This document shows positions 4,760 to 64,000 of a stretch of 64,000 nt of DNA, piece by piece. The notes under the pieces are model-generated. The model worked only from the letters and a program-made list of their open reading frames with translations, was not told the DNA's origin and ran no database searches. Numbering within the stretch: the first letter of the stretch is position 1; every line of letters begins with the position of its first letter. The stretch covers positions 981,853 to 1,045,852 of the forward strand of contig NC_090973.1 in assembly GCF_040807025.1 (NCBI RefSeq), written 5' to 3'. Both the position numbers and the translations under genes were made by a program. The DNA is from Struthio camelus (Eukaryota).

Positions 4760-6300
4760 AGTGACCGTCCCCGAGGGTGGCCTCATGTCCCTGCAAGGTC
4801 TCCAAGGGTGGCCCCGAGGGTGTCCCCATGTCCCCAAGGGTATTCCTAGGTCCTTAGGAAGTCCCCAAAGATGTCCTCAAGGGCTTCTCGGGTCCCCAAG
4901 GGCGTCCCCAGGTCCCCAAGGGCGTCCCTGAGGGCTTCCCTGTGTCCCCAAAGGGGTCCTCGTGTCCCCAAGAGGTTCTCTAGGGTATTTCGGTGTCCCC
5001 AGGTCCCCAAGGGTGTCCCCAAGGGGGTCCCTGTGTCCCCAAGCGGTGCCCAACATTGTTCCTGTGTCCTCATCGGCATCCCAGTGTCCCTGGCTGTGTC
5101 TGCGTGTCCCCAAGGCTGTCCCCGTGTCCCCGAAGCTGTCCCCAAGTCCTCTCTGCCTTCTCCACCTTCCCAAGGCTGTCCCCGTGTTCCCTATGTCATC
5201 TCTGTCTCTCCAACGCTGTCCCCAAGGCCATCTGTGTCCCCGACGCCATCCCCGTGGCTCTCCCCACGCGTTCCCTGCCACCATCCCCACCTCCTCGCCG
5301 GTGTCCCCAAGGCCGTCCCAGTGTCCCCAAGGCCATTGCCATCACCATCTCCATGCCTCTCCCTGCGCGGTCCCTGCTGGTGTCCCCGAGGCCATCCCCC
5401 AATGCCACCCCATGTCCCCGAGGCCATCTCCACGTCCCTACGGCCATCTCTGCGTCCCCAAACCCATGACTGACCCCATCTCTGTGGTTCAGTCCCCGCT
5501 GGTGTCCCCGAGGCCGTCCCCAAATGCCACCCCATGTCCCCTACGGCCATCTCTGCGTCCCCAAGCCCATGACCAACCGCATCTCCGTGGTTCAGTCCCC
5601 ACTGGTGTCCCCGAGGCCATCCCCCAATGCCACCCCATGTCCCCGAGGCCATCTCCACATCCCTACGGCCATCTCTGCGTCCCCAAGCCCATGACCAACC
5701 CCAACTCCGTGGTTCAGTCCCTGCTGGTGTCCCCGAGGCCATCCCCCAATGCCACCCCATGTCCCCGAGGCCATCTCCCACGTCCCTACGGCCATCTCTG
5801 CGTCCCCAAGCCCATGACCAACCGCATCTCCGTGGTTCAGTCCCCACTGGTGTCCCCGAGGCCGTCCCCAACTGCCACCCCATGTCCCCGAGGCCATCTC
5901 CACATCCCTACGGCCATCTCTGCGTCCCCAAGCCCATGACTGACCCCATCTCCGTGGTTCAGTCCCCACTGGTGTCCCCAAGGCCGTGCCCCAAGGCCAT
6001 CCCCATGTCCCCTACGGCCATCTCTGCGTCCCCAAACCCATGACTGACCCCATCTCCGTGGTTCAGTCCCTGCTGGTGTCCCCAAGGCCGTCCCCAACTG
6101 CCACCCCATGTCCCCGAGGCCATCTCCACATCCCTACGGCCATCTCTGCGTCCCCAAGCCCATAACCAACCCCATCTCCACGGTTCTCCATGGTCCCCGA
6201 GGCCATCTCCACGTCCCTACGGCCATCTCTGCGTCCCCAATGCTGCCCCCCGCCGTCGTCCTCGTGGCCGTGTCCCCCTCCCCCCCCCATCCCCACCCGC
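4760..6300. repeat. ALDOA intron 3 minisatellites: ~20-bp gtccccaagggtgtcccc (4780-5200) then ~120-bp unit containing ccatctctgcgtccccaagcccatgaccaacc (5200-6250)
   Basis: The periodicity shows in the repeated ORF peptides [23 protein letters not shown]. Confidence 0.9.
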
Positions 6301-6327
6301 GTCCCCACGGTGTCCCCGCGCGCCCAG

Positions 6328-6488
6328 GCCTGGACGGGCTGATGGAGCGCTGCGCCCAGTACAAGAAGGACGGGGCCGACTTCGCCAAGTGGCGCTGCGT
6401 GCTCAAGATCTCGGAGCACACGCCCTCGCGCCTCGCCATCATGGAGAACGCCAACGTCCTCGCCCGCTACGCCAGCATCTGCCAGCAG
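6328..6488 (+). CDS. ALDOA: ALDOA coding exon 4
   Basis: cag acceptor 6325-6327. Encodes [55 protein letters not shown] donor 6489. Confidence 0.92.
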
Positions 6489-6489
6489 G

Positions 6490-7335
6490 TCTGTCACCCC
6501 CGCCCCAGACGTGGCGTGGGGTGCCGGCGGGTCCCCGCCTCCTTTTGTCACCTGGGAGGGGTTGGAGAGCTCCCGGCGTCGGTGTGTCACCCCCTCCCGG
6601 GGGTGGCTGGGGACCTCCCGGCTGGGCTGTCGCGCCGGGACGCGATGCGGTGGCGTGTCCCTGCGTTCCCTCTCGTCACCCCGGGGTGGCCGGGGGTCTC
6701 CTGGCCGCGGCGCGGCGCCGGGACGCGACGTCGGTGGTGTCCTTGCGTCGCCTCTTGGCGCTCTGGGATGGCCGGAGATGTCCCGGCGGTGTCGTAGCGC
6801 CGGGATGTGGCCTTGGCGGCCTTCCCGCGTCACCTGCTGCCACCCCGAGGTGGCTGGGGATCTCCTGGCTGCGCTGTGGCACTGGGACGTGGCTTCGGCC
6901 ACGTCCCTGTGCCACCTGCTGCCACCTCGGGGTGGCTGGGGACATGCTGGTTCCACCGTGGTGCTGGGACGTGGTTTTGGTGGCGTTCCTGTGTCACCTC
7001 GGGATGGCTGGGGACTTCCTGGTTGTGTCGTGGTGCCAGGAGATGGCCTTGGCAGTGTCCCTGTGTCGCCTAGTGTCCCCTCCTGTCACCATGGGGTGGC
7101 TGGGGAGCTCCTGGCTGCGCTGTGACACCCAGACGTGGCTTTGGTAGCATCTCTGCGTCACTTGCTGTCACCCCCGGGGTGGCTGGGGGCCTCCTGGTTG
7201 TGCCGTGATGCCGGGACGCGGCCTTGGCGGGGCCCTTGTGTCACCTATTGTCACCCCGAGGGGGCTGGGCACCTCCTGGCTGTGGGTCCGTGTGCCCTTG
7301 TGTCGCCCCAGGGTGGCCGGCTGCCCCCAGGTGTC
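6490..7335. repeat. ALDOA intron 4 ~85-95-bp minisatellite (gtcacc..ggggtggctgggga.ctccyggctg.gctgt..cgccgggacg)
   Basis: About 9 units that start directly at the donor (gtctgtcaccc). Confidence 0.85.
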
Positions 7336-7371
7336 CTCGCACGTCCCCCAACTCGTGCCCTGTCCCCCCAG

Positions 7372-7455
7372 AACGGCATCGTCCCCATCGTGGAGCCCGA
7401 GATCCTCCCTGACGGCGACCACGACCTCAAGCGCTGCCAGTACGTCACGGAGAAG
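7372..7455 (+). CDS. ALDOA: ALDOA coding exon 5
   Basis: AG acceptor 7370-7371. Encodes [30 protein letters not shown] donor 7456. Confidence 0.92.
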
Positions 7456-7540
7456 GTGGGTGTCCCCGCGTTCCCCGCCGCGTCCCCAACCGCCTCCCTG
7501 TCCCCGCCGCGTCCGCAACGTGTCCCCGCCGCGTCCCCAG

Positions 7541-7715
7541 GTGCTGGCGGCCGTCTACAAGGCGCTGAGCGACCACCACGTCTACCTGGAGGGGACCCTG
7601 CTCAAGCCCAACATGGTGACGGCGGGTCACGCCTGTCCCAAGAAGTACAGCCCCGAGGAGATCGCCATGGCCACCGTCACTGCCCTGCGGCGCACCGTGC
7701 CACCCGCCGTCCCCG
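7541..7715 (+). CDS. ALDOA: ALDOA coding exon 6
   Basis: cag acceptor 7538-7540. Encodes [58 protein letters not shown](G). gtgag donor 7716. Confidence 0.92.
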
Positions 7716-7805
7716 GTGAGCCTCGGTGGCACCGGCGTGGCCCTGGGTTGGCCCCATCCCCTACGGCCGCGTCGCGCCGCGGCTGACGTCCCCGTCCCCG
7801 CGCAG

Positions 7806-17939: not shown

Positions 17940-18330
17940 GGGGCCCAGGCGTCCGGGAGGGATGAGGAGGGACCCAGGTGTCCGGGCCGGGGGGGGGGAC
18001 AGGAGGGTAGGAAAGAGGGGCCCAGGTGTCCGGGAGGAGCCAGGCCCCTTTGTGTGCAAACCAAATGTCTGGTGGGGGGGGGGGAGGGTGTCTGGAGCAA
18101 GAAGGGGCCCAGGCGTCCGGGGAGGGACCCAGGCGTCCTGGTGACATTCAAGCGTCTGGAGTGAGAAGGGATCCAGGCATCCGGGGAGGGGTCCCAGGTG
18201 TCCGGGGTTGGGGGACGGGGACCCAAGTGTCCAGGAGGCTTCCAGGTGCCTGGGACCAGAGGGGACCCAGGCGTCCGGGGCGGGGGGGAAGGACCCAGGC
18301 GTCCGGGAGGACCCAGACGTGCGGGCGCCG
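17940..18330. repeat. Block of the gggacccaggcgtccggg(ga) minisatellite family inside PPP4C intron 4
   Basis: It has the same unit as 10555-13130 and about 12 copies. Confidence 0.85.
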
Positions 18331-18333
18331 CAG

Positions 18334-18507
18334 GTGCGCTACCCCGACCGCATCACGCTGATCCGGGGCAACCACGAGAGCCGGCAGATCACGCAGGTCT
18401 ACGGCTTCTACGACGAGTGCCTGCGCAAGTACGGCTCCGTCACCGTCTGGCGCTACTGCACCGAGATCTTCGACTACCTCAGCCTCTCCGCCATCATCGA
18501 CGGCAAG
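18334..18507 (+). CDS. PPP4C: PPP4C coding exon 5
   Basis: cag acceptor 18331-18333. Encodes [58 protein letters not shown] (GNHE motif). gtgagc donor 18508. Confidence 0.92.
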
Positions 18508-35926: not shown

Positions 35927-36378
35927 GCAGTTCGGCGACCGGCGGCCCAGAGCGCAGGCTGGGCCGCCAGGGCACCCAGGAGCTGGACGGCTCGTCCCGG
36001 CGGCCGCCTGAGCAGGATGAGGCCGCCTCGCAGCACGCCCTGGGGCAGCCCGCGGCGCCCCGCGCCCAGCCGGCGCCGCCGCCGGCCCCCCCCGCCGCCG
36101 CCCCCCCCCTGCCGCCGCGCCCCGAGGTGACGGCCGCCCCCCCGGGCGGCGGGGGCGGCGCGTTGCGCCCCTCGCCCTCTCCCCCGCCGCCCCCACCCCC
36201 CAGCGCCCCCGGCAGCGAGCCCGTGTCGCCCGCCTCGGCCGGCTCGCCCGCTTCCGGCGCCGCCGCCGGCGGCTCGCCCCCCGCCAACGCCCGCCTCGAC
36301 GCCGCCGCCGCCGCCCCCCCGGACCCCCCCAGCCTCTGGGACAAGACCCACGCCGAGATCGCCGAGCAGGCCAAGCAC
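35927..36378 (+). CDS. SRCAP: SRCAP N-terminal coding exon ending ...SLWDKTHAEIAEQAKH
   Basis: ttctgcag acceptor 35921-35926. The frame reads ...SEPVSPASAGSPASGAAAGGSPP...DPPSLWDKTHAEIAEQAKH, matching human SRCAP ...SNPVSPASSSSPASSGAGGISPQ...KSHAEIAEQAKH. gtgagt donor 36379. There is no in-frame ATG in this exon. Confidence 0.8.
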
Positions 36379-39300
36379 GTGAGTGCAGGCGGGGAGGTGT
36401 TTTGGGGCAAATTGGGGTGGTTTTGGGGCCCGCTTGAGAATCAAACCCGTGCTGAGATCGCTGAGCACGTGTGTGTGGGGTCAGAGCAGTGTTTTGGGGT
36501 GGTTTTGGGTCCCTCTTGAGAATCAAACCCACGCTGAGGTCTCTCAGCACGTGTGTGTGGGGTCAGAGCAGTGTTTTGGGGCGAATCAGGGTGGTTTTGG
36601 GTCCCTCTCGACAATTGGAACCCACGCCAAGATCGCCGAGGAGGCCAAGGCCGTGAGTGCAGGCGGGGAGGCGTTTTGGGGTGAATCGGGGCGGTTTTGG
36701 GTCCCGTTTGAGAATCAAAACCCACGCCAAGATCGCTGAGGAGGCCAAGGATGTGAGTGTAGGTGGGGAGGTGTTTTGGGGCAATTTGAGGCGGTTTTGG
36801 GGCCCGCTTGAGAATCAAACCCGTGCTGAGATCGCTGAGCACGTGTGTGTGGGGTCAGAGCAGTGTTTTGGGGTGATTTGGGGTGGTTTTGGGGCCCGCT
36901 TGAGAATCAAATCCGTGCTGAGGTCTCTCAGCACGTGTGTGTGGGGTCAGAGAAGTGTTTTGGGGCGAATCAGGGTGGTTTTGGGTCCCTCTCGACAATT
37001 GTAACCCACGCCGAGATCGCCGAGCAGGCCAAGCACGTGAGTGCAGGTGGGGAGGTGTTTTGGGGCAAATTGGGGTGGTTTTGGGGCCCGCTTGAGAATC
37101 AAACCCGTGCTGAGATCGCTGAGCACGTGTGTGTGGGGTCAGAGCAGTGTTTTGGGGTGATTTGGGGTGGTTTTGGGTCCCTCTTGAGAATCAAACCCAC
37201 GCTGAGGTCTCTCAGCACGTGTGTGTGGGGTCAGAGCAGTGTTTTGGGGCGAATCAGGGTGGTTTTGGGTCCCTCTCGACAATTGGAACCCACGCCAAGA
37301 TCGCCGAGGAGGCCAAGGCCGTGAGTGCAGGCGGGGAGGCGTTTTGGGGTGAATCGGGGCGGTTTTGGGTCCCGTTTGAGAATCAAAACCCACGCCAAGA
37401 TCGCTGAGGAGGCCAAGGATGTGAGTGTAGGTGGGGAGGTGTTTTGGGGCAATTTGAGGCGGTTTTGGGGCCCACTTGAGAATCAAACCCGTGCTGAGAT
37501 CGCTGAGCACGTGTGTGTGGGGTCAGAGCAGTGTTTTGGGGTGATTTGGGGTGGTTTTGGGTCCCTCTCGATAAGTGGAACCCACGCCGAGATCGCCGAG
37601 GAGGCCAAGGACGTGAGTGCAGGTGGGGAGGCGTTTTGGGGCGATTCGGGGCGGTTTTGGGTCCCGCTTGAGAATCAAAACCCACGCCGAGATCGCCGAG
37701 GAGGCCAAGGATGTGAGTGTAGGCGGGGAGGTGTTTTGGGGCAATTTGAGGCGGTTTTGGGTCCCGCTTGAGAATCAAACCTATGCTGAGATCTCTGAGC
37801 CCGTGCGTGTGGGGACGCAGAAGTGTTTTGGGGCGATTTGGGGCGGTTTTGGGTCCCTCTCGATAGTTGGAACCCACGCCGAGATCGCCGAGGAGGCCAA
37901 GGACGTGAGTGCAGGTGGGGAGGCGTTTTGGGGCGATTCGGGGCGGTTTTGGGTCCTGCTTGAGAATCAAACCTATGCTGAGATCTCTGAGCCCGTGCGT
38001 GTGGGGTCAGAGCAGTGCTTTGGGGCGAATCGGGGCGGTTTTGGCTTTCTCTTGAGAATCAAAACCCACGCCAAGATCGCTGAGGAGGCCAAGGACGTGA
38101 GTGCAGGCAGGGAGGCGTTTTGGGGCAATTTGGGGCGGTTTTGGGTCCCACTGGAGGATTAAACCTGTGCTGGCATCACTGAGCCCATGTGTGTGGGGAC
38201 GGAGAAGCGTTTTAGGGTGCTTTGGGGCGGTTTTGGGTCCCACTCGAGAATCAAACCCGTGCTGAGGTTGCTGAGCACGTGTGTGTGGGGTCAGAGCAGT
38301 GTTTTGGGGTGATTTGGGGTGGTTTTGGGTCCCTCTCAAGAACCAAAACCCGTGCTGAGATCGCCGAGGAGGCCAAGGACGTGAGTGCAGGCGGGGAGGA
38401 GTTTTGGGGCAATTTGAGGCGGTTTTGGGTCCCACTCGATGCTCAAACCCACGCTGAGATCCCTGAGCATATGCGTGTGGGGACGCAGAAGTGTTTTGGG
38501 GCGAATCGGGGCGGTTTCGGGTCCCTCTCGATAATTGGAACCCTCGCCGAGCAGGCCGAGGACGAGAGTGCGGGCAGGGAGGCGTTTTGGGGCGAATCGG
38601 GGCGGTTTCAGGTCCCTCTTGATAATTGAAGCCCGTGCTGAGATGGCCGAGCATGTGTGTGTGGGCTCAGAGCAGTGTTTTGGGGCGAATTGGGGCGGTT
38701 TTGGGTCCTTCTTGATGATCAGAACCCGCTCAGGTATCGCCGAGCAGGCCAAGCACATGAGCGCAGGCAGGGAGGTGTTTTGGGGTGAATCGGGGCGGTT
38801 TTGGGTCCCTCTCAATAATTGAATCACGTGCTGAGATCGCTGAGCACAAGCACGTGGGGTCGGAGAAGTGTTTTGGGGCGATTTGGGGTGGTTTTGGGTT
38901 CCTCTCCAGAATCAAAACCCATGCCGGGATCGCCGAGCAAGCCGAGCGCACGCGTCTGGGGTCAGAGCAGTGTTTTGGGGTGAATCAGGGTGATTTTGGG
39001 TCCCTCTCGATAATTGAAGCCCGTGCCGAGATTGGTGAGCCCCTGCGTGTGGGGTCAGAGCAGTGTTTTGGGGCGAATCGGGGTGGTTTTGGGTTTCTCT
39101 TGGGAATCAAAGCCTGCGCTGAGATCGCTGAGGAGGCCAAGGACGTGAGTGCAGGCGGGGAGGCGATTTGGGGTGAATCAGGACAGTTTTGGGTCCCTCT
39201 CGAGAACCCAAACTCACACCAAGATTGGTGAGCCCGTGCGTGTGGGCTCAGAGCAGTGTTTTGGGGCGAATCGGGGCAGTTTTGGGTCGCTCTCGAGAAC

Positions 39301-40300
39301 CCAAACTCCTGCCAAGATCGCTGAGCCTGTGCGTGTGGGGTCAGAGCAGTGTTTTGGGGCGAATCGGGGTGGTTTTGGGTTTCTCTTGAGAATCAAAACG
39401 TGCGCCGAGATCGCTGAGGAGGCCAAGGACGTGAGTGCAGGCGGGGAGGTGTTTTGGGGTGATTTGAGGTGGTTTTGGGTCCCTCTCGATGATCCAAACC
39501 CGCGCCGAGGTCACTGAGCAGACCAAGCATGAGTGCTGATGGGGAGGTGATTTGGGGTGATTTGGGACGATTTTGGGTCCTTCTTAAGAATCAAAACCCA
39601 CGCTGAGATCTCTGAGCCCGTGCGTGTGGGGTCAGAGCAGTGTTTTGGGGCGAATTGGGGTGGTTTTGGGTTTCTCTTGAGAATCAAAACGTGCGCGGAG
39701 ATCCCTGAGGAGTCCAAGCATGTGAGCGCAGGTGGGGAGATGTTTTGGGGTGAATCGGGGTGGTTTTGGGTTTCTCTCAAGAACCAAAACCCACACCAAG
39801 ATTGCTGAGGAGGCCAAGCGTGTGGATGCAGGCAGGGAGGCGTTTTGGGGCAAATTGAGGCAGTTTTTGGTCCCTCTCGAGAACCCAAACTCCCACCAAG
39901 GTCGCCGAGCCCGTGCGTGTGGGGTCAGAGCAGTGTTTTGGGGCGAATCGGGGCGGTTTTGGGTTTCTCTTGGGAATCAAAAACCCGCGTGGACATCGTT
40001 GAGGAGGCCAAGGATGTGAGTGCAGGCGGGGAGGCGATTTGGGGCGAATCAGGACAGTTTTGGGCCCCTCTCGAGAACCCAAACTCACACCAAGATCGCT
40101 GAGCCCGTGCGTGTGGGCTCAGAGCAGTGTTTTGGGGCGAATCGGGGTGGTTTTGGGTTTCTCTTGGGAATCAAAGCCTGCGCTGAGATCGCTGAGGAGG
40201 CCAAGGACGTGAGTGCAGGCAGGGAGGTGTTTTGGGGTGAATCGAGGTGGTTTTGGGTCCCTCTCGAGAACCCAAACTCCCGCCAAGGTCGCCGAGCCCG
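36379..40300. repeat. ~140-bp tandem repeat (x~28) derived from the SRCAP exon-B 3' end plus splice donor
   Basis: Each unit carries a copy of acccacgccgagatcgccgagcaggccaagcacGTGAGTGCAGGcggggagg. An exact 44-nt copy including the GT donor lies at 37004-37047. Diverged copies are at 36610-36665, 36728-36770, 37298, 37386, 37575, 37690, 37880, 38075, 38350 and others. Repeat ORFs encode THAKIAEEAKD, versus real THAEIAEQAKH. Confidence 0.9.
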
Positions 40301-41002
40301 TGCGTGTGGGCTCAGGGCAGTGTTCTGGGGCGAATCGGGGCGGTTTCGGGTCTGCCGCGGAGCCCGGCGACCGCCGAGGGCAGCCCGAAGCGTGGCGACG
40401 CCGGGAGGCGTCTCGCGGCGCTTCGGCCCTTCTCCCCTTGCGGCCGGAGCCGAGCTCCCCGGCGGGGGGGGAGGGGGGGGGACGTGCAGCTTTTGGGGTG
40501 AATCGAGGTGGTTTTGGGTCCCTCTTGATAATCGGGCCGCGTTGAGATCGCTGAGCCCGTGCGTGTGGGGTCAGAGCAGTGTTTTGGGGTGATTCGAGGT
40601 GGTTTTGGGTCCCTCTCGAGAACCAAAACCTGTGCTGAGATCGCCGAGGAGGCCAAGGACGTGAGTGCAGGCGGGGAGGTGATTTGGGGCGAATCGAGGT
40701 GGTTTTGGGTCCCTCTCGAGAACTCAAACTCACACCAAGATTGGTGAGCCCGTGCGTGTGGGCTCAGGGCAGTGTTCTGGGGCGAATCGGGGCGGTTTCG
40801 GGTCCGCCGCGGAGCCCGGCGACCGCCGAGGGCAGCCCGAAGCGTGGCGACGCCGGGAGGCGTCTCGCGGCGCTTCGGCCCTTCTCCCCTTGCGGCCGGA
40901 GCCGAGCTCCCCGGGCGGGCGGGCGAGCGGGCGACGGGGCCGGTTTTGGGGGCGAAGCCGGGCGGTTTCGGGCCCGCCGCGACGCCTCGCCTGGCCGGGC
41001 AG

Positions 41003-57000: not shown

Positions 57001-57038
57001 GGGGCACCTCCATATTTGACCCCCCCCCCCCCCCGCAG

Positions 57039-57175
57039 GTGCTGCGCCCCTTCCTGCTGCGCCGGGTGAAGGTGGACGTGGAGAAGCAGATGCCCAAGAA
57101 GTACGAGCACGTCATCAAGTGCCGCCTGTCCAAGCGGCAGCGCTACCTCTACGACGACTTCATGGGCCAGGCCAG
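57039..57175 (+). CDS. SRCAP: SRCAP exon (SNF2 ATPase)
   Basis: cag acceptor 57036-57038. Encodes [45 protein letters not shown](S). gtgag donor 57176. Confidence 0.9.
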
Positions 57176-57309
57176 GTGAGCGGGCCGGGGACGCCGGGGT
57201 CCCCTCCGCCGTCCCCCGTCACGCCCCCTCCCTCCCTCCCCCTTCCCCCCCCCGCCTCCTCCCCCCCAGTCTCCTCAGCCTGTCACCCGTCCCCCGCCAC
57301 CCCCCGCAG

Positions 57310-57496
57310 CACCAAGGCCACCCTGGCCACGGGCCACTTCATGAGCGTCATCAACGTGCTGATGCAGCTGCGCAAGGTGTGCAACCACCCCAACCTCTTC
57401 GACCCGCGGCCCATCCACTCGCCCTTCATCACCGAGGGCATCTGCTTCGTCACCGCCTCGCTCGTCCTGCGCGCCCTCGACCCCGACCCCTTCAAG
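57310..57496 (+). CDS. SRCAP: SRCAP exon (SNF2 ATPase)
   Basis: cag acceptor 57307-57309. Encodes (S)TKATLATGHFMSVINVLMQLRKVCNHPNLFDPRPIHSPFITEGICFVTASLVLRALDPDPFK. gtgacg donor 57497. Confidence 0.9.
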
Positions 57497-57499
57497 GTG

Positions 57500-60414
<2,915 letters not shown>

Positions 60415-60439
60415 TCACAGGGGGTGGTGGGTCCCCATG

Positions 60440-60870
60440 GGGGGGGTGCCAGGGTGTTTCAGGGGGGGTGGGGGCCGGGTGCTCACCCATGGGTGCTCCC
60501 CCCTCCCCCCAGGATGCTGCAGCCCCCGCCCCGGAGGGTATTTCGGGGGGGTGGGGGCTAGGTGCTCACCCATGGGTGCTCCCCCCCCCCAGAATGCTGC
60601 AGCCCCCCCCCGGAGGGTATTTCGGGGGGTGGGGGCCGGGTGCTCACCCATGGGTGCTTCCCCCCCCCCAGGATGCTGCAGCCCCCCCCCCCGGGGGGGG
60701 TGTTTCGGGGGGTTGGGGTGGGGGCTGGCTGCTCACCCATGGGTGCTCCCCCCTCCCCCACAGGATGCTGCAGCCCCCCCCCCCGGGGGGGTGTTTCGGG
60801 GGGTTGGGGTGGGGGCTGGCTGCTCACCCATGGGTGCTCCCCCCTCCCCCACAGGATGCTGCAGGCCCCC
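60440..60870. repeat. ~85-bp tandem repeat x5 that duplicates the SRCAP exon-P acceptor and exon start
   Basis: The unit is gtgctcacccatgggtgctcccccctcccccacagGATGCTGCAGCCCCC... Copies of cag|GATGCTGCAG lie at ~60511, 60592 (cagaATGCTGCAG), 60681 and 60763, and the real acceptor is at 60852-60854. Confidence 0.9.
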
Positions 60871-61108
60871 CCCAAGGCGGAGGGCCGGGTGCTGGTGCCG
60901 CCGGGGCCCCGGCCCCCCCCCGCGCCGCCCCCCGCCGCCACCGCCGCCCCCCCGCCGCCGCCGCTGCCCCCCGCCGGCCCCCCCGGCGCCCCCCTGGCCC
61001 TGGGGCTGGGGCTGGGCCTGGCCCTGGCCGCCCCCCCCCGGCCCCCGCCCCCACCGCCGCCACCGCCCACCCTCCTGCCCCCCCTCGGCCCCGCCGCCCC
61101 CGCCCACG
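60855..61108 (+). CDS. SRCAP: SRCAP exon (proline-rich)
   Basis: cacag acceptor 60852-60854. Encodes (R)MLQAPPKAEGRVLVPPGPRPPPAPPPAATAAPPPPPLPPAGPPGAPLALGLGLGLALAAPPRPPPPPPPPPTLLPPLGPAAPAH, versus human RMLQPVPKQEGRTVVVVNNPRAPLGPV.... gtgagg donor 61109. Confidence 0.8.
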
Positions 61109-61109
61109 G

Positions 61110-61829: not shown

Positions 61830-62087
61830 TGCTGCCGCCGCTGGCTGGAGCCGCCCTGGGAGCCGCCCGGCCGCCGGCGCCGCCCCCCGTCGCTGCCGCC
61901 GCCGCCGCCCCCCTGAAAGCGGGGCCGGGTCCCGTGGGGCTGGGCCGGCCCCCGGGCGCCCCCCAAGCATCCCCGGCGCCCCCCAAGCCCGGCCCGGGGG
62001 CCCCCGCGCCCCTGCCCGCCTACGCCTTCCCCGGCGCCGGCCCCCAGCGCCTGCTGCTCTCGCCCGACATGCAGGCCCGCCTGCCCT
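61830..62087 (+). CDS. SRCAP: SRCAP exon ending ...QRLLLSPDMQARLP
   Basis: ttccctcag acceptor 61827-61829. Encodes (V)LPPLAGAALGAARPPAPPPVAAAAAAPLKAGPGPVGLGRPPGAPQASPAPPKPGPGAPAPLPAYAFPGAGPQRLLLSPDMQARLP, versus human ...QRLILSPDMQARLP. gtgagt donor 62088. The gene continues beyond the window. Confidence 0.85.
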
Positions 62088-64000
62088 GTGAGTGTCACCC
62101 CGTCACCTGCTCGTGCTGTCACCCCCCGGCCCTGTCACCCCCCATCGCTGAGTGCGCCACCTGCTGGCAGCGTCCCCTCCCCACTAACGGTGTCCGCTGG
62201 GGGCCCTGTCGCACCCTAACGTTGTCACCCGCTCACGGTGTCACCCGCTGGCAGCGTCACCCCCCATCGGTGTCCCCCGCTGAGTGCGCCACCTGCTGGC
62301 AGCGTCCCCTCCCCACTAATGGTGTCCGCTGGGGGCCCTGTTGCACCCTAACGTTGTCACCCGCTCACGGTGTCACCCGCTGGCAGCGTCACCCCCCATC
62401 GGTGTCCCCCGCTGAGTGCGCCACCTGCTGGCAGCGTCCCCTCCCCACTAACGGTGTCCGCTAGGGGCCCTGTCGCACCCTAACGTTGTCACCCGCTCAC
62501 GGTGTCACCCGCTGGCAGCGTCACCCCCCATCGGTGTTCCCCGCTGAGTGCGCCACCTGCTGGCAGCGTCCCCTCCCCACTAACGGTGTCCGCTGGGGGC
62601 CCTGTCGCACCCTAACGTTGTCACCCGCTCACGGTGTCACCCGCTGGCAGCGTCACCCCCCATCGGTGTTCCCCGCTGAGTGCGCCACCTGCTGGCAGCG
62701 TCCCCTCCCCACTAACGGTGTCCGCTGGGGGCCCTGTCGCACCCTAATGTTGTCACCCGCTCATGGTGTCACCCGCTGGCTGCGTCACCCCCCCATCGGT
62801 GTCCCCCGCTGAGTGCGCCACCTGCTGGCAGCGTCCCCTCCCCACTAACGGTGTCCGCTGGGGGCCCTGTCGCACCCTAACGTTGTCACCCGCTCACGGT
62901 GTCACCCGCTGGCAGCGTCACCCCCCCATCGGTGTCCCCCGCTGAGTGCGCCACCTGCTGGTGGCATCCTCTCCTCGCTAATGGTGACTGCTGGTGGTGC
63001 TGTCACACCCTAACGTTGTCACCTGCTCATGGTGTCACCTGCTCGCGGTGTCACCACCTATTGGCATCCCCCCTATTGGTGTTCCCCGCTGACTATGCCA
63101 CCTGCTGACGGTCTTCTCCCTGCTAATGGTGTCAGCGGCTGACAGTGTCACACCCTAACGCTGTCACCCGCTGACAGTTTCCCCTGCTGACAGTTGCCCC
63201 CCCCATCAGTGACCCCCGCTGACCATACCACCTGCTAACAGTGTCAACTGGTGGCAGTGTTGCGCCCTAACATTGTCACCCGCTGGCAGTGTCCCCCTGC
63301 CATCGGTGACCCCCGCTGACGGTGTCCTCTCCCTGCTAACGGTGTCAGCTGGTGGTGGTGTCACCCGCTCATGGTGTCACCCGCTTGCGATGTCACCCCC
63401 TGTTGGTGTCCCCTGCTGACCGCATTCACCCACTGACGGTGTTCTCTCTCCCCTAACGGTGTCAGTGGGTTGCAGTGTTGCCCCCTAATGTTGTTGGCTG
63501 CTAGTGGTGTTGCTTGCTCGTGGTGTCACCGTCCCCTAATGGTGTCAGCGGGTGGCAGTGTCGTCCCCTAATGTTGTTGTCTGCTGGCAGTGTCACTTGC
63601 TCATGGTGTCACCCCGTAATAGCGTTCCTCCCTTACCAGCGTCCCCCGCTAACACCGTCACCCCCTAACAGCGTCCCCCGCTGACGGTGTCCCCTCCTAA
63701 CGGCGTCCCCCCTTACCGGCATCCCCCGCTAACACCGTCACCCCCTAACAGCGTCCCCCGCTGACGGTGTCCCCTCCTAACGGCGTCCCCCCTTACCGGC
63801 ATCCCCCGCTAACACCGTCACCCCCTAACAGCGTCCCCCGCTGACGGTGTCCCCTCCTAACGGCGTCCCCCCTTACCGGCATCCCCCGCTAACACCGTCA
63901 CCCTCCAACAGCGTCCCCTGCCGACAGCACGCCCCACTGATGGTGTCCCCCCCTAACCATGTCCCCCGTTACCAGCGTCCTCCATTAACACCGTCACCTC
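62088..64000. repeat. C-rich ~132-134-bp tandem repeat (gctgagtgcgccacctgctggcagcgtcccctccccactaacggtgtccgctgggggccctgtcgcaccctaacgttgtcacccgctcacggtgtcacccgctggcagcgtcaccccccatcggtgtcccccg) x~7, then diverged units and a ~60-bp array (63600-64000)
   Basis: It starts immediately at the gtgagtgtcacc donor. The track ORFs show 44-aa periodicity. Confidence 0.9.

What the first reader, a model, noticed from the sequence alone, without database searches (positions are those of the whole stretch)
60440..60885. SRCAP 3' splice site and exon start duplicated five times in tandem
The acceptor context ctcacccatgggtgctcccccctcccccacag|GATGCTGCAG of the exon at 60855 is the last unit of an 85-bp tandem repeat. 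Four upstream copies keep an AG followed by GATGCTGCAG or AATGCTGCAG. Using any of them would insert multiples of ~85 nt (frameshifting) or signal NAGNAG-like competition, so the real acceptor must be selected among near-identical decoys.
Basis: seen in the sequence. Interest (0 to 1): 0.7.

Follow-up and report, generated by a model that had tools for sequence, protein, structure and literature searches.

The report
Intron repeat copies SRCAP splice acceptor
The end of one SRCAP intron, together with the first bases of the next exon, is present five times head to tail in a very GC-rich bird-type genome; this is a new example of the recently described "exon stuttering" of avian dot-chromosome genes, not a special splicing device.

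Summary
At 60451-60873, TRF finds 5.0 copies of a 79-92 nt unit. CAG|RATGCTGCAG occurs exactly five times in the window, with exon-like starts at 60513, 60593, 60672, 60764 and 60855. The gene is SRCAP. Only the last copy continues into the conserved ...KMKVNR|MLQAPPKAEGR sequence.

Each unit is a complete acceptor module: G-rich block, CTCAC branch candidate, C-rich tract and CAG. Copies 4 and 5 are identical from -91 to +10.

Not all decoys would shift the frame:
- +91 and +262 nt shift the frame.
- +342 nt is in frame but meets a TAG.
- +183 nt is in frame and open, adding 61 aa.

"NAGNAG-like" is the wrong analogy.

Context makes this ordinary. 72% of the window is tandem repeat. A second SRCAP intron (36.3-40.7 kb) repeats an exon end plus its GTGAGT donor about 17 more times. 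A 2026 paper (PMC12954441) describes exactly this in chicken dot-chromosome genes but did not analyse splicing.

Most likely the decoys are neutral by-products. They would be ignored because they lie farther from the exon's downstream donor and are followed by long G-runs; mis-spliced products would be removed by NMD. No transcript data could be obtained, so actual acceptor use is untested.

The parts
60451..60873 (+). Tandem array of five 79-92 nt units. It spans the 3' end of the intron and the first 10-19 nt of the exon.
   Evidence: TRF (5.0 copies, 89% matches). Five-copy family. Alignment A1. Unit identities.
60433..60512 (+). Unit 1, the ancestral-looking intron end. Branch candidate A at 60485, AG at 60511-60512. 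Decoy acceptor 1 has its exon-like start at 60513.
   Evidence: Use would add 342 nt, in frame, with a TAG at about 60559.
60513..60592 (+). Unit 2. Exon-derived GATGCTGCAGCCCCCGCCCCGGAGGG, then a G-run block, CTCAC (A at 60568), a C-tract and CAG. Decoy acceptor 2 has its exon-like start at 60593, which is A instead of G.
   Evidence: Use would add 262 nt, a +1 frameshift.
60593..60671 (+). Unit 3. Branch candidate A at 60646. Decoy acceptor 3 has its exon-like start at 60672.
   Evidence: Use would add 183 nt, in frame with no stop, giving a 61-aa insertion.
60672..60763 (+). Unit 4. Branch candidate A at 60735. Decoy acceptor 4 has its exon-like start at 60764. It is identical to the real acceptor from -91 to +10 except for one homopolymer base.
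   Evidence: Use would add 91 nt, a +1 frameshift.
60764..60854 (+). Unit 5, the functional 3' splice-site module. G-rich block at about -45 to -62. CTCAC branch candidate (A at 60826, position -29). C-rich tract. AG at 60853-60854.
   Evidence: The only adenines at branch-point distance are at -29 and -25.
60855..61108 (+). The real SRCAP exon, 254 nt and 90% GC, encoding (R)MLQAPPKAEGRVLVPP.... Its donor is CACG|GTGAGG.
   Evidence: PDB phmmer alignment to human SRCAP 996-1078. Frame continuity into the next exon. Composition.
59593..59762 (+). The preceding SRCAP exon, [15 protein letters not shown]...KPVKMKVN(R). Its donor is the weak CG|GTACCG. Its acceptor is a CAGCAG pair at 59590-59595.
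   Evidence: The exon end ...KMKVNR| is conserved in bird, mammal and fish contigs.
59770..60403 (+). A second, independent array that fills the 5' part of the same intron. GGGGACACC-type units with periods of about 18 and 50 nt.
   Evidence: TRF.
61830..62087 (+). The next SRCAP exon, ...PQRLLLSPDMQARLP. Frameshifted products from decoys 2 and 4 would meet stop codons here.
36346..40681 (+). A second case of the same kind in the same gene. The last 33 nt of the exon ending at 36378, plus its 5' splice site GTGAGTGCAGG, recur about 17-18 more times through the following intron.
   Evidence: 16 of the 17 copies found keep GT. The exon junction AKH|EAQVEH is confirmed by an ungapped alignment to human SRCAP 89-252 at E 4.6e-88.

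Best explanation
The array is a by-product of local tandem-repeat expansion, the 'sequence/exon stuttering' reported for avian dot-chromosome genes. Here the expansion happened to start from a block straddling the intron-exon border of a SRCAP exon.

The original block was about 57 nt of intron end plus about 26-30 nt of exon start. It was duplicated and re-duplicated on the intron side. The newest step produced units 4 and 5. The exon and the protein are untouched.

Each unit is a complete acceptor module, so the four upstream copies are true decoys. I infer, but have not shown, that they are not used appreciably, for three reasons:
1. Exon definition pairs the downstream donor at 61109 with the nearest acceptor. 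That gives a 254-nt exon, against 345-596 nt for the decoys.
2. Each decoy's would-be exon begins with G6-G8 runs and a G-quadruplex-type motif, which are intron-type signals. Real SRCAP exon starts never carry G-runs longer than 4.
3. Any leakage to +91, +262 or +342 gives premature stop codons and would be removed by nonsense-mediated decay.

The same logic explains the 5' splice-site array at 36.3-40.7 kb. In both arrays the copies lie on the intron side of the true site.
For: Shown:
- Five-copy array with intact CAG, C-rich tract and a private branch candidate in each unit.
- Units 4 and 5 are identical apart from one homopolymer base.
- Only copy 5 continues into sequence homologous to human SRCAP.
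- 72% of the window is in TRF arrays, and 63% in arrays with period of at least 20 nt and at least 3 copies.
- Of 29 SRCAP junctions scanned, 2 are repeated in the adjacent intron: the acceptor at 60855 and the donor at 36378.
- About 17 donor copies follow 36378.
- The longest G-run in the first 90 nt is 4 or less for all 13 real acceptors and 6-8 for the 4 decoys. In the 90 nt upstream of donors, 14 of 15 real donors have no G4+ run, while all 14 decoy donors have 1-3.

Literature:
[quoted passage not shown] It reports 236 introns in 115 chicken genes, 1-44 copies (median 4), with more than 90% of source sequences within 1 base of the exon border.
- PPP4C and ALDOA on chicken dot chromosome 38 are in that list. 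Aldolase and a PP2A-family phosphatase gene lie upstream in this window.

From established knowledge: exon definition and the poor recognition of long internal exons, and NMD.
Against: - No transcript evidence of any kind was obtainable, so 'decoys unused' is inference.
- The decoys carry no disabling mutations. Each has its own upstream G-rich enhancer-like block, so they look fully competent.
- The intron is only 1.1 kb. Under intron definition, the first decoy (60513) would be favoured.
- Decoy 3 is in frame and open, so NMD would not police it.
- The G-run discriminator rests on four non-independent decoys.
- The real exon itself has three short G-runs in its first 80 nt.
- The species and chromosome are not identified. 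SRCAP is not named in the paper or its held supplements.
Confidence: 0.7

Rival explanations
1. The decoy acceptors are really used and give alternative SRCAP transcripts. Decoy 3 would give a +61-aa in-frame isoform within the disordered proline-rich linker. Decoys 1, 2 and 4 would give NMD-targeted transcripts that lower SRCAP output (unproductive splicing).
For: - All decoys have intact CAG, C-tract, branch candidate and upstream G-rich block.
- Decoy 4 is identical to the real site from -91 to +10.
- +183 nt is in frame without a stop.
- PMC12954441 notes that such copies 'create potential alternatively spliced transcripts'.
Against: - The 61 inserted residues have no counterpart in human SRCAP.
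- The protein search with the repeat-encoded ORF found nothing.
- The decoy 'exons' would be 345-596 nt and rich in long G-runs, unlike any real exon start here.
- No avian spliced contig was found either way.
Confidence: 0.15
2. The repeated modules are functional in cis. One version is a cluster of G-rich enhancers and U2AF/U2-binding sites that helps splice an intron with a weak donor (GTACCG) and C-rich tracts. Another is decoy 3' sites that hold the intron back, as in the decoy-exon model of intron retention.
For: - The donor at 59763 is weak compared with GTGAGG in other birds.
- G- and C-rich motifs upstream of weak pyrimidine tracts enhance splicing (PMC2481429).
- Decoy splice sites can drive intron retention (PMC6097662 and PMC7373989).
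Against: - Arrays of unrelated sequence fill almost every intron and intergenic stretch of the window, so no locus-specific function is needed to explain this one.
- Units 4 and 5 are practically identical, which points to very recent duplication rather than maintained function.
- GT sites inside the array are poor donors, so no decoy exon is formed.
- The predicted RNA structure is no more stable than shuffled sequence, z = +0.94.
Confidence: 0.07
3. The copy number, or the array itself, is an assembly artefact of a long-read assembly in extremely GC-rich, homopolymer-rich DNA.
For: - The units contain C9-C11 and G6-G8 homopolymers that are error-prone.
- Short-read contigs of other birds break in this intron.
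- PMC12954441 warns that some local variation may be technical.
Against: - The units differ by ordered substitutions and indels. Units 1-3 are about 80 nt and carry GGAGGGTATTTC; units 4-5 are about 91 nt and carry GGGGGGGTGTTTC. That is not what a collapse or expansion artefact looks like.
- The same architecture is seen throughout the window.
- In chicken PHF8 it was verified on raw nanopore reads.
Confidence: 0.08

Closest known systems
Exon stuttering / sequence stuttering in genes of chicken dot chromosomes (PMC12954441, Genome Biol Evol 2026)
   Same: - A local, imperfect tandem expansion confined to one intron.
- The repeated block spans the exon border and carries the splice site.
- The exon itself stays intact.
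- Copy number (5) is near the reported median of 4.
- The setting is extremely GC-rich and repeat-saturated, next to aldolase and PPP4C-like genes whose chicken orthologues are listed cases on chr38.
   Different: - SRCAP is not named in that paper or its held supplements.
- The exon-derived part is short: 10 nt exact and about 26 nt with indels. That is probably below the paper's BLASTn threshold.
- The genome is probably not chicken GGswu. Gene spacing differs, and the protein keeps ancestral residues that other birds have changed.
- The paper did not look at splicing consequences, which are worked out here.
NAGNAG tandem acceptors
   Same: More than one AG could serve as the 3' splice site of one exon.
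   Different: - NAGNAG sites are 3 nt apart, share one branch point and tract, and change the protein by one residue.
- Here the sites are 79-92 nt apart and each has its own branch candidate and tract.
- A true CAGCAG pair does exist at the previous exon's acceptor, 59590-59595.
Decoy exons / decoy splice sites that promote intron retention (PMC6097662, PMC7373989)
   Same: Intronic, apparently competent splice sites that are not part of the productive mRNA.
   Different: - Decoy exons have both a 3' and a 5' site, and minigene work has shown that they act.
- Here only acceptors are repeated, the internal GT sites are weak, and no functional evidence exists.
G-rich and C-rich intronic splicing enhancers compensating weak, C-rich pyrimidine tracts in GC-rich introns (PMC2481429)
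   Same: Every unit has G-runs at about -45 to -62 and a C-rich, U-poor tract. This is the architecture described for such introns.
   Different: That work concerns single-copy introns. Here the whole enhancer-branch-tract-AG module is multiplied, so the enhancer cannot by itself tell the real site from the decoys.
Tandem exon duplication (origin of mutually exclusive exons)
   Same: Tandem duplication involving exon sequence and a splice site.
   Different: Only the first 10-26 nt of the exon is copied, and no donor is copied with it. No duplicate exon exists.

Membership tests
Exon stuttering (PMC12954441) | Imperfect tandem blocks of tens to hundreds of bases, expanded locally within one intron | tested here: met
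   Units of 79-92 nt, 5 copies, 80-100% pairwise identity. The array is confined to the intron 59763-60854 plus the exon edge.
Exon stuttering (PMC12954441) | The block contains a lateral part of the adjacent exon plus its splice site, with the source within about 1 base of the exon border | tested here: met
   CAG|GATGCTGCAG is present in all five units. The exon-derived part extends to about 26 nt with indels.
Exon stuttering (PMC12954441) | The coding exon itself is unaltered | tested here: met
   ...KMKVNR|MLQAPPKAEGR aligns without a gap to human SRCAP 986-1008.
Exon stuttering (PMC12954441) | The host gene lies on an avian dot chromosome | tested here: inconclusive
   GC is 57-77% across the window and TRF coverage is 72%. 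Aldolase and a PP2A-family phosphatase gene lie upstream. Chicken PPP4C and ALDOA are on dot chromosome 38. The species and chromosome of the window are unknown.
Exon stuttering (PMC12954441) | Intron length and copy number vary among individuals | not testable with these tools
   No population or read data are available.
NAGNAG tandem acceptor | Two AGs 3 nt apart that share one branch point and pyrimidine tract | tested here: not met
   Spacings are 80, 79, 92 and 91 nt. Each unit has its own CTCAC/CCCAT adenines at -21 to -29 and no other adenine at branch-point distance.
Decoy exon / decoy splice-site regulator | A cryptic exon with both 3' and 5' sites inside the retained intron | tested here: not met
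   GT sites in the array are GGG|GTGGGG, AGG|GTATTT, GGG|GTGTTT and TGG|GTGCTC. None has the +4A/+5G pattern of the gene's strong donors.
Decoy exon / decoy splice-site regulator | Shown to cause intron retention or non-productive spliceosome engagement | not testable with these tools
   This needs RNA-seq or minigene work.
Tandem exon duplication | A whole exon with both splice sites is duplicated | tested here: not met
   Only 10-26 nt of the 254-nt exon is repeated.
SRCAP orthologue (host gene) | Collinear homology to human SRCAP across the HSA and ATPase regions | tested here: met
   6igm_H residues 89-252 match at E 4.6e-88. Residues 886-1078 match at E 1.5e-62.

The most novel reading that the evidence does not exclude
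The four decoy acceptors, and the roughly 17 decoy donors in the intron at 36.3-40.7 kb, are actually engaged by the spliceosome. On this reading, exon stuttering creates a copy-number-dependent control on SRCAP output through NMD-coupled or detained transcripts, plus a +61-aa in-frame isoform from decoy 3. Copy-number polymorphism of these arrays would then be a heritable modifier of splicing efficiency in dot-chromosome genes. A milder version is also open. If the decoys are silent, the locus is a natural cis-competition experiment showing that 91 nt upstream and 10 nt downstream of an AG carry no information for acceptor choice.
Probability: 0.12. Interest if true: 0.6.

Novelty: new member of a known kind. 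Interest (0 to 1): 0.3.

Why it matters
By itself this is one more intronic minisatellite in a genome region that is 72% tandem repeat. Its use is as a clean test case.

- A real acceptor has a decoy 91 nt upstream that is identical to it from -91 to +10.
- In the same gene, a real donor is followed by about 17 near-perfect copies.
- If transcripts use only the authentic sites, splice-site choice here must rest entirely on context beyond the classical signals: distance across the exon, G-run content and exonic enhancers.
- The 2026 description of exon stuttering left the splicing consequences unexamined, and SRCAP offers both an acceptor array and a donor array in one gene.
- If the window is from a bird other than chicken, as the residue pattern suggests, it also extends the phenomenon beyond the single species in which it was reported.

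Tried and rejected
Cross-species view of the acceptor:
- Three protein-database searches were run.
- The first two returned only fragments. These confirm the exon end ...KMKVNR| in birds, mammals and fish, and give one spliced mammalian contig, VNRMLQPVPKQEG (P0071).
- The third search used the repeat-encoded ORF and found nothing.
- Contigs from other birds (L001-L005) stop inside a GGGGACAC-type repeat 100-150 nt after the orthologous donor, so they never reach the acceptor.
- A degenerate DNA pattern for the exon start found nothing in JGI metagenome contigs.

RNA structure as a discriminator:
- The 501-nt region folds no better than shuffles, z = +0.94.
- The 9-bp hairpin around the branch candidate is the same in all units.
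- This idea was rejected.

Anchoring the low-complexity part of the exon and the next exon:
- A PDB sequence search for this gave no hit.

Third boundary-derived repeat:
- I considered whether the array at 62146-63055 also copies the donor at 62087.
- The unit has GCTGAGTGCGCC against CTGTGAGTGTCACC, lacks GT, and gave no blastn hit.
- It was not accepted.

MaxEntScan could not be run. For copies 4 and 5, any method that scores -20..+3 must give the same value.

Species identification by exact-sequence look-up was judged unlikely to work and was not attempted.

Full report
**1. The observation**

- TRF finds a single array at 60451-60873: period 91 (units 79-92 nt), 5.0 copies, 89% matches, score 543.
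- The repeat finder returns a five-member family with start-to-start spacings of 83, 78, 89 and 91 nt. Within it, one 91-nt pair is 99% identical.
- The motif CAGRATGCTGCAG occurs five times in the 64-kb window, all in the array, against 0.00 expected from shuffles.
- The exon-like first bases are at 60513, 60593 (A instead of G), 60672, 60764 and 60855. Each is preceded by CAG.
- Units 4 and 5 have no substitution and differ by one homopolymer base over 101 nt. Units 2-5 are 92-93% identical. Unit 1, the leftmost, has no exon-derived head, is about 80% identical, and looks like the original intron end.

**2. The gene and the real acceptor**

The + strand from about 36.1 kb to the end of the window encodes SRCAP.
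- Spliced translations align without gaps to human SRCAP (PDB 6igm_H) residues 89-252 at E 4.6e-88.
- A second stretch aligns to residues 886-1078 at E 1.5e-62. It covers the junction in question: window ...[25 protein letters not shown] against human ...[25 protein letters not shown].
- The upstream exon is 59593-59762, with donor CG|GTACCG.
- The exon boundary after KMKVN(R) is the same in contigs from other birds, mammals and fish. One spliced mammalian contig reads VNRMLQPVPKQEG.
- The exon starting at 60855 runs to 61108 (CACG|GTGAGG) and keeps the frame into the next exon at 61830-62087. A PDB search of this low-complexity stretch gave nothing.

**3. Anatomy of a unit**

Reading 5' to 3', a unit contains:
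- an exon-derived head, GATGCTGCAG plus a C-run, alignable to the real exon for about 26 nt with indels;
- a G-run block, at -45 to -62 relative to the next AG;
- GCTCACCCATGGGTGCT, which contains a yUnAy-type branch candidate (CTCAC);
- a C-rich, U-poor tract;
- CAG.

Between decoy 4 and the real AG there are only six adenines, at -90, -83, -29, -25, -4 and -2. The branch point of each acceptor must therefore lie in its own unit, at -29 or -25. No AG intervenes. Every unit is thus a complete, private 3' splice-site module. For copies 4 and 5, any method that scores -20..+3 must return the same value.

**4. Consequences of using a decoy**

| Decoy | Exon-like start | Added nt | Resulting exon | Effect |
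|---|---|---|---|---|
| 1 | 60513 | 342 | 596 nt | in frame, TAG at about 60559 |
| 2 | 60593 | 262 | 516 nt | +1 frameshift |
| 3 | 60672 | 183 | 437 nt | in frame, no stop, 61 extra residues |
| 4 | 60764 | 91 | 345 nt | +1 frameshift |

- The frameshifted readings meet stops in the next exon, upstream of many further junctions. From established knowledge of NMD, they would be degraded.
- 'Frameshifting' is therefore right for only two of the four decoys.
- These frame calls depend on exact C9-C11 and G6-G8 homopolymer lengths, which long-read assemblies can get wrong.

**5. Context**

- The window is 57-77% GC.
- 72% of it lies in TRF arrays, and 63% in arrays with period of at least 20 nt and at least 3 copies.
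- SRCAP introns are almost wholly built of such arrays, each different from the next.
- I scanned 29 SRCAP junctions, taking 30 nt of exon plus 25 nt of intron, for copies. Two are multiplied in the adjacent intron: the acceptor at 60855, and far more strongly the donor at 36378.
- At the donor, the last 33 nt of the exon (ACCCACGCCGAGATCGCCGAGCAGGCCAAGCAC) plus GTGAGTGCAGG recur 17 times between 36620 and 40672 with 9 or fewer mismatches. One copy has a single mismatch, and 16 of the 17 keep GT.
- The finding is therefore not a peculiarity of one acceptor.

**6. What is known**

A 2026 paper (PMC12954441) describes 'sequence stuttering' in genes of chicken dot chromosomes: local, imperfect tandem expansions that fill introns.
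- It reports 236 such introns in 115 genes. Copy numbers are 1-44 (median 4). Exon parts are 20-187 bp (median 36). More than 90% of source sequences lie within 1 base of the exon border.
- The text contains no analysis of splicing.
- SRCAP is not mentioned in the text or the held supplements.
- PPP4C and ALDOA on chr38 are listed cases. An aldolase gene and a PP2A-family phosphatase gene lie upstream of SRCAP in this window.
- The present array meets the sequence-level criteria of exon stuttering. Chromosome type and polymorphism could not be tested.

**7. How it most likely works**

Shown: the decoys are intrinsically as good as the real site. Inferred: they are ignored because of context.
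- By construction the copies sit on the intron side of the true site. The true acceptor is therefore the one closest to the exon's downstream donor: 254 nt against 345-596 nt. Likewise, the true donor at 36378 is the one closest to its exon's upstream end. Exon definition favours the nearest pair and handles long internal exons poorly (established knowledge).
- Each decoy's would-be exon starts with G6-G8 runs and a G-quadruplex-type motif. The first 90 nt of all 13 real SRCAP exons examined have no G-run longer than 4.
- Symmetrically, all 14 decoy donors have 1-3 G4+ runs in the 90 nt upstream, and 14 of 15 real donors have none. Some donor coordinates in that call are off by 1-3 nt, which does not affect 90-nt windows.
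- G-runs are intronic enhancers in GC-rich introns with weak, C-rich tracts (PMC2481429). This cuts both ways, because every decoy also has its own upstream G-block.
- NMD would clear three of the four possible mistakes.
- Global RNA structure offers no explanation, z = +0.94 against shuffles.

**8. Rivals**

- Real use of the decoys, especially the in-frame decoy 3, is not excluded. I give it about 0.15.
- A cis-acting function, as an enhancer cluster or a retention decoy, is possible but unnecessary, since unrelated arrays are everywhere. I give it about 0.07.
- An assembly artefact is unlikely, because the units differ in an ordered way. I give it about 0.08.

**9. Verdict**

The gene, the site and the decoys are right. 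The frame consequences are overstated, the NAGNAG analogy is wrong, and the general phenomenon was missed.
- This is a new member of a recently described kind. Its interest is modest. Its main value is as a ready-made natural test of splice-site choice, since SRCAP holds both an acceptor array and a donor array.

Noticed in passing
window 36346-40681: The last 33 nt of the SRCAP exon ending at 36378, plus its 5' splice site (..GCCAAGCAC|GTGAGTGCAGG), recur 17-18 more times through the following 4.6-kb intron. 16 of the 17 copies found keep GT, and one copy (37004-37048) has a single mismatch. This is a much larger splice-site array than the one in the finding.
   Followed up: yes
window 59770-60403; L001 1276-1416, L004 838-941, L005 1515-1640: The 5' part of the same intron is a separate GGGGACACC-type array. 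Contigs from other birds (91% protein identity in the preceding exon) carry similar 'cttggggacac' repeats right after the orthologous donor, and their short-read assemblies end there. Repeat expansion in this intron is therefore not limited to one species.
   Followed up: partly
window 35703-60836 (37 sites): The 12-nt palindrome CACCCATGGGTG, allowing 1 mismatch, occurs 37 times against 1.4 expected. All sites are on the + strand, in or just upstream of the SRCAP gene, in at least five different arrays (35.7, 44.3, 47.7-48.5, 51.8-52.7 and 60.5-60.8 kb). It often lies 20-35 nt upstream of an acceptor (44362, about 48.4 kb, 60855). A motif shared between otherwise different arrays is unexplained.
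   Followed up: partly
window 59763-59768: The donor of the intron in question is GTACCG, with no +4A or +5G, whereas the orthologous donor in other birds is GTGAGG. A dense G-run array starts 7 nt downstream.
   Followed up: partly
window 59590-59595: The acceptor of the preceding exon is a true tandem CAGCAG (NAGNAG) pair. Its two AGs would give QVDMG... or VDMG....
   Followed up: no
window 1-64000: 72% of the window lies in TRF arrays with score of at least 50, and 63% in arrays with period of at least 20 nt and at least 3 copies. Arrays differ from intron to intron. Most are G-rich on the sense strand, with GC skew up to +0.7.
   Followed up: yes
window 6100-7800 and 18200-18500: Upstream of SRCAP on the + strand lie exons of a class I aldolase (residues 126-274 of aldolase A/C, E about 1e-88) and of a PP2A-family phosphatase catalytic subunit (PPP4C-like by my reading). 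Chicken PPP4C and ALDOA are listed exon-stuttering genes on dot chromosome 38, but there they span 32 and 55 kb, far more than here.
   Followed up: partly
window 57036-57495 and 59593-59762, compared with P0003, P0007-P0010, P0014, P0068-P0072: The window's SRCAP keeps mammal-like residues ([39 protein letters not shown]). Goose, pigeon and several unnamed birds share changed ones (RRLKVD, EHVL, ASGHF, NHPDLFEPRP, ALEGR, KPVRMKVNR). By parsimony the source lies outside the clade of those birds, possibly a palaeognath. This is inference only.
   Followed up: no
window 60907-61105: The real exon itself contains short in-frame tandem repeats, for example CCCTGG x6 at 60992-61029 giving LALGLGLGLALA, and 17-22-nt proline/alanine units. 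This part does not align convincingly to human SRCAP. Repeat expansion seems to act inside coding sequence as well.
   Followed up: no
window 62146-63055: A 132-nt x 6.9 array starts 59 nt after the donor at 62087. Its unit contains GCTGAGTGCGCCACC, which resembles the donor region CTGTGAGTGTCACC but lacks GT. It may be an old, degenerated donor copy, but the similarity is too weak to call.
   Followed up: partly
window 60863-60864: The copied exon head GATGCTGCAG carries its own AG 10 nt downstream of every acceptor, including the real one. Using it would delete 10 nt and shift the frame.
   Followed up: no
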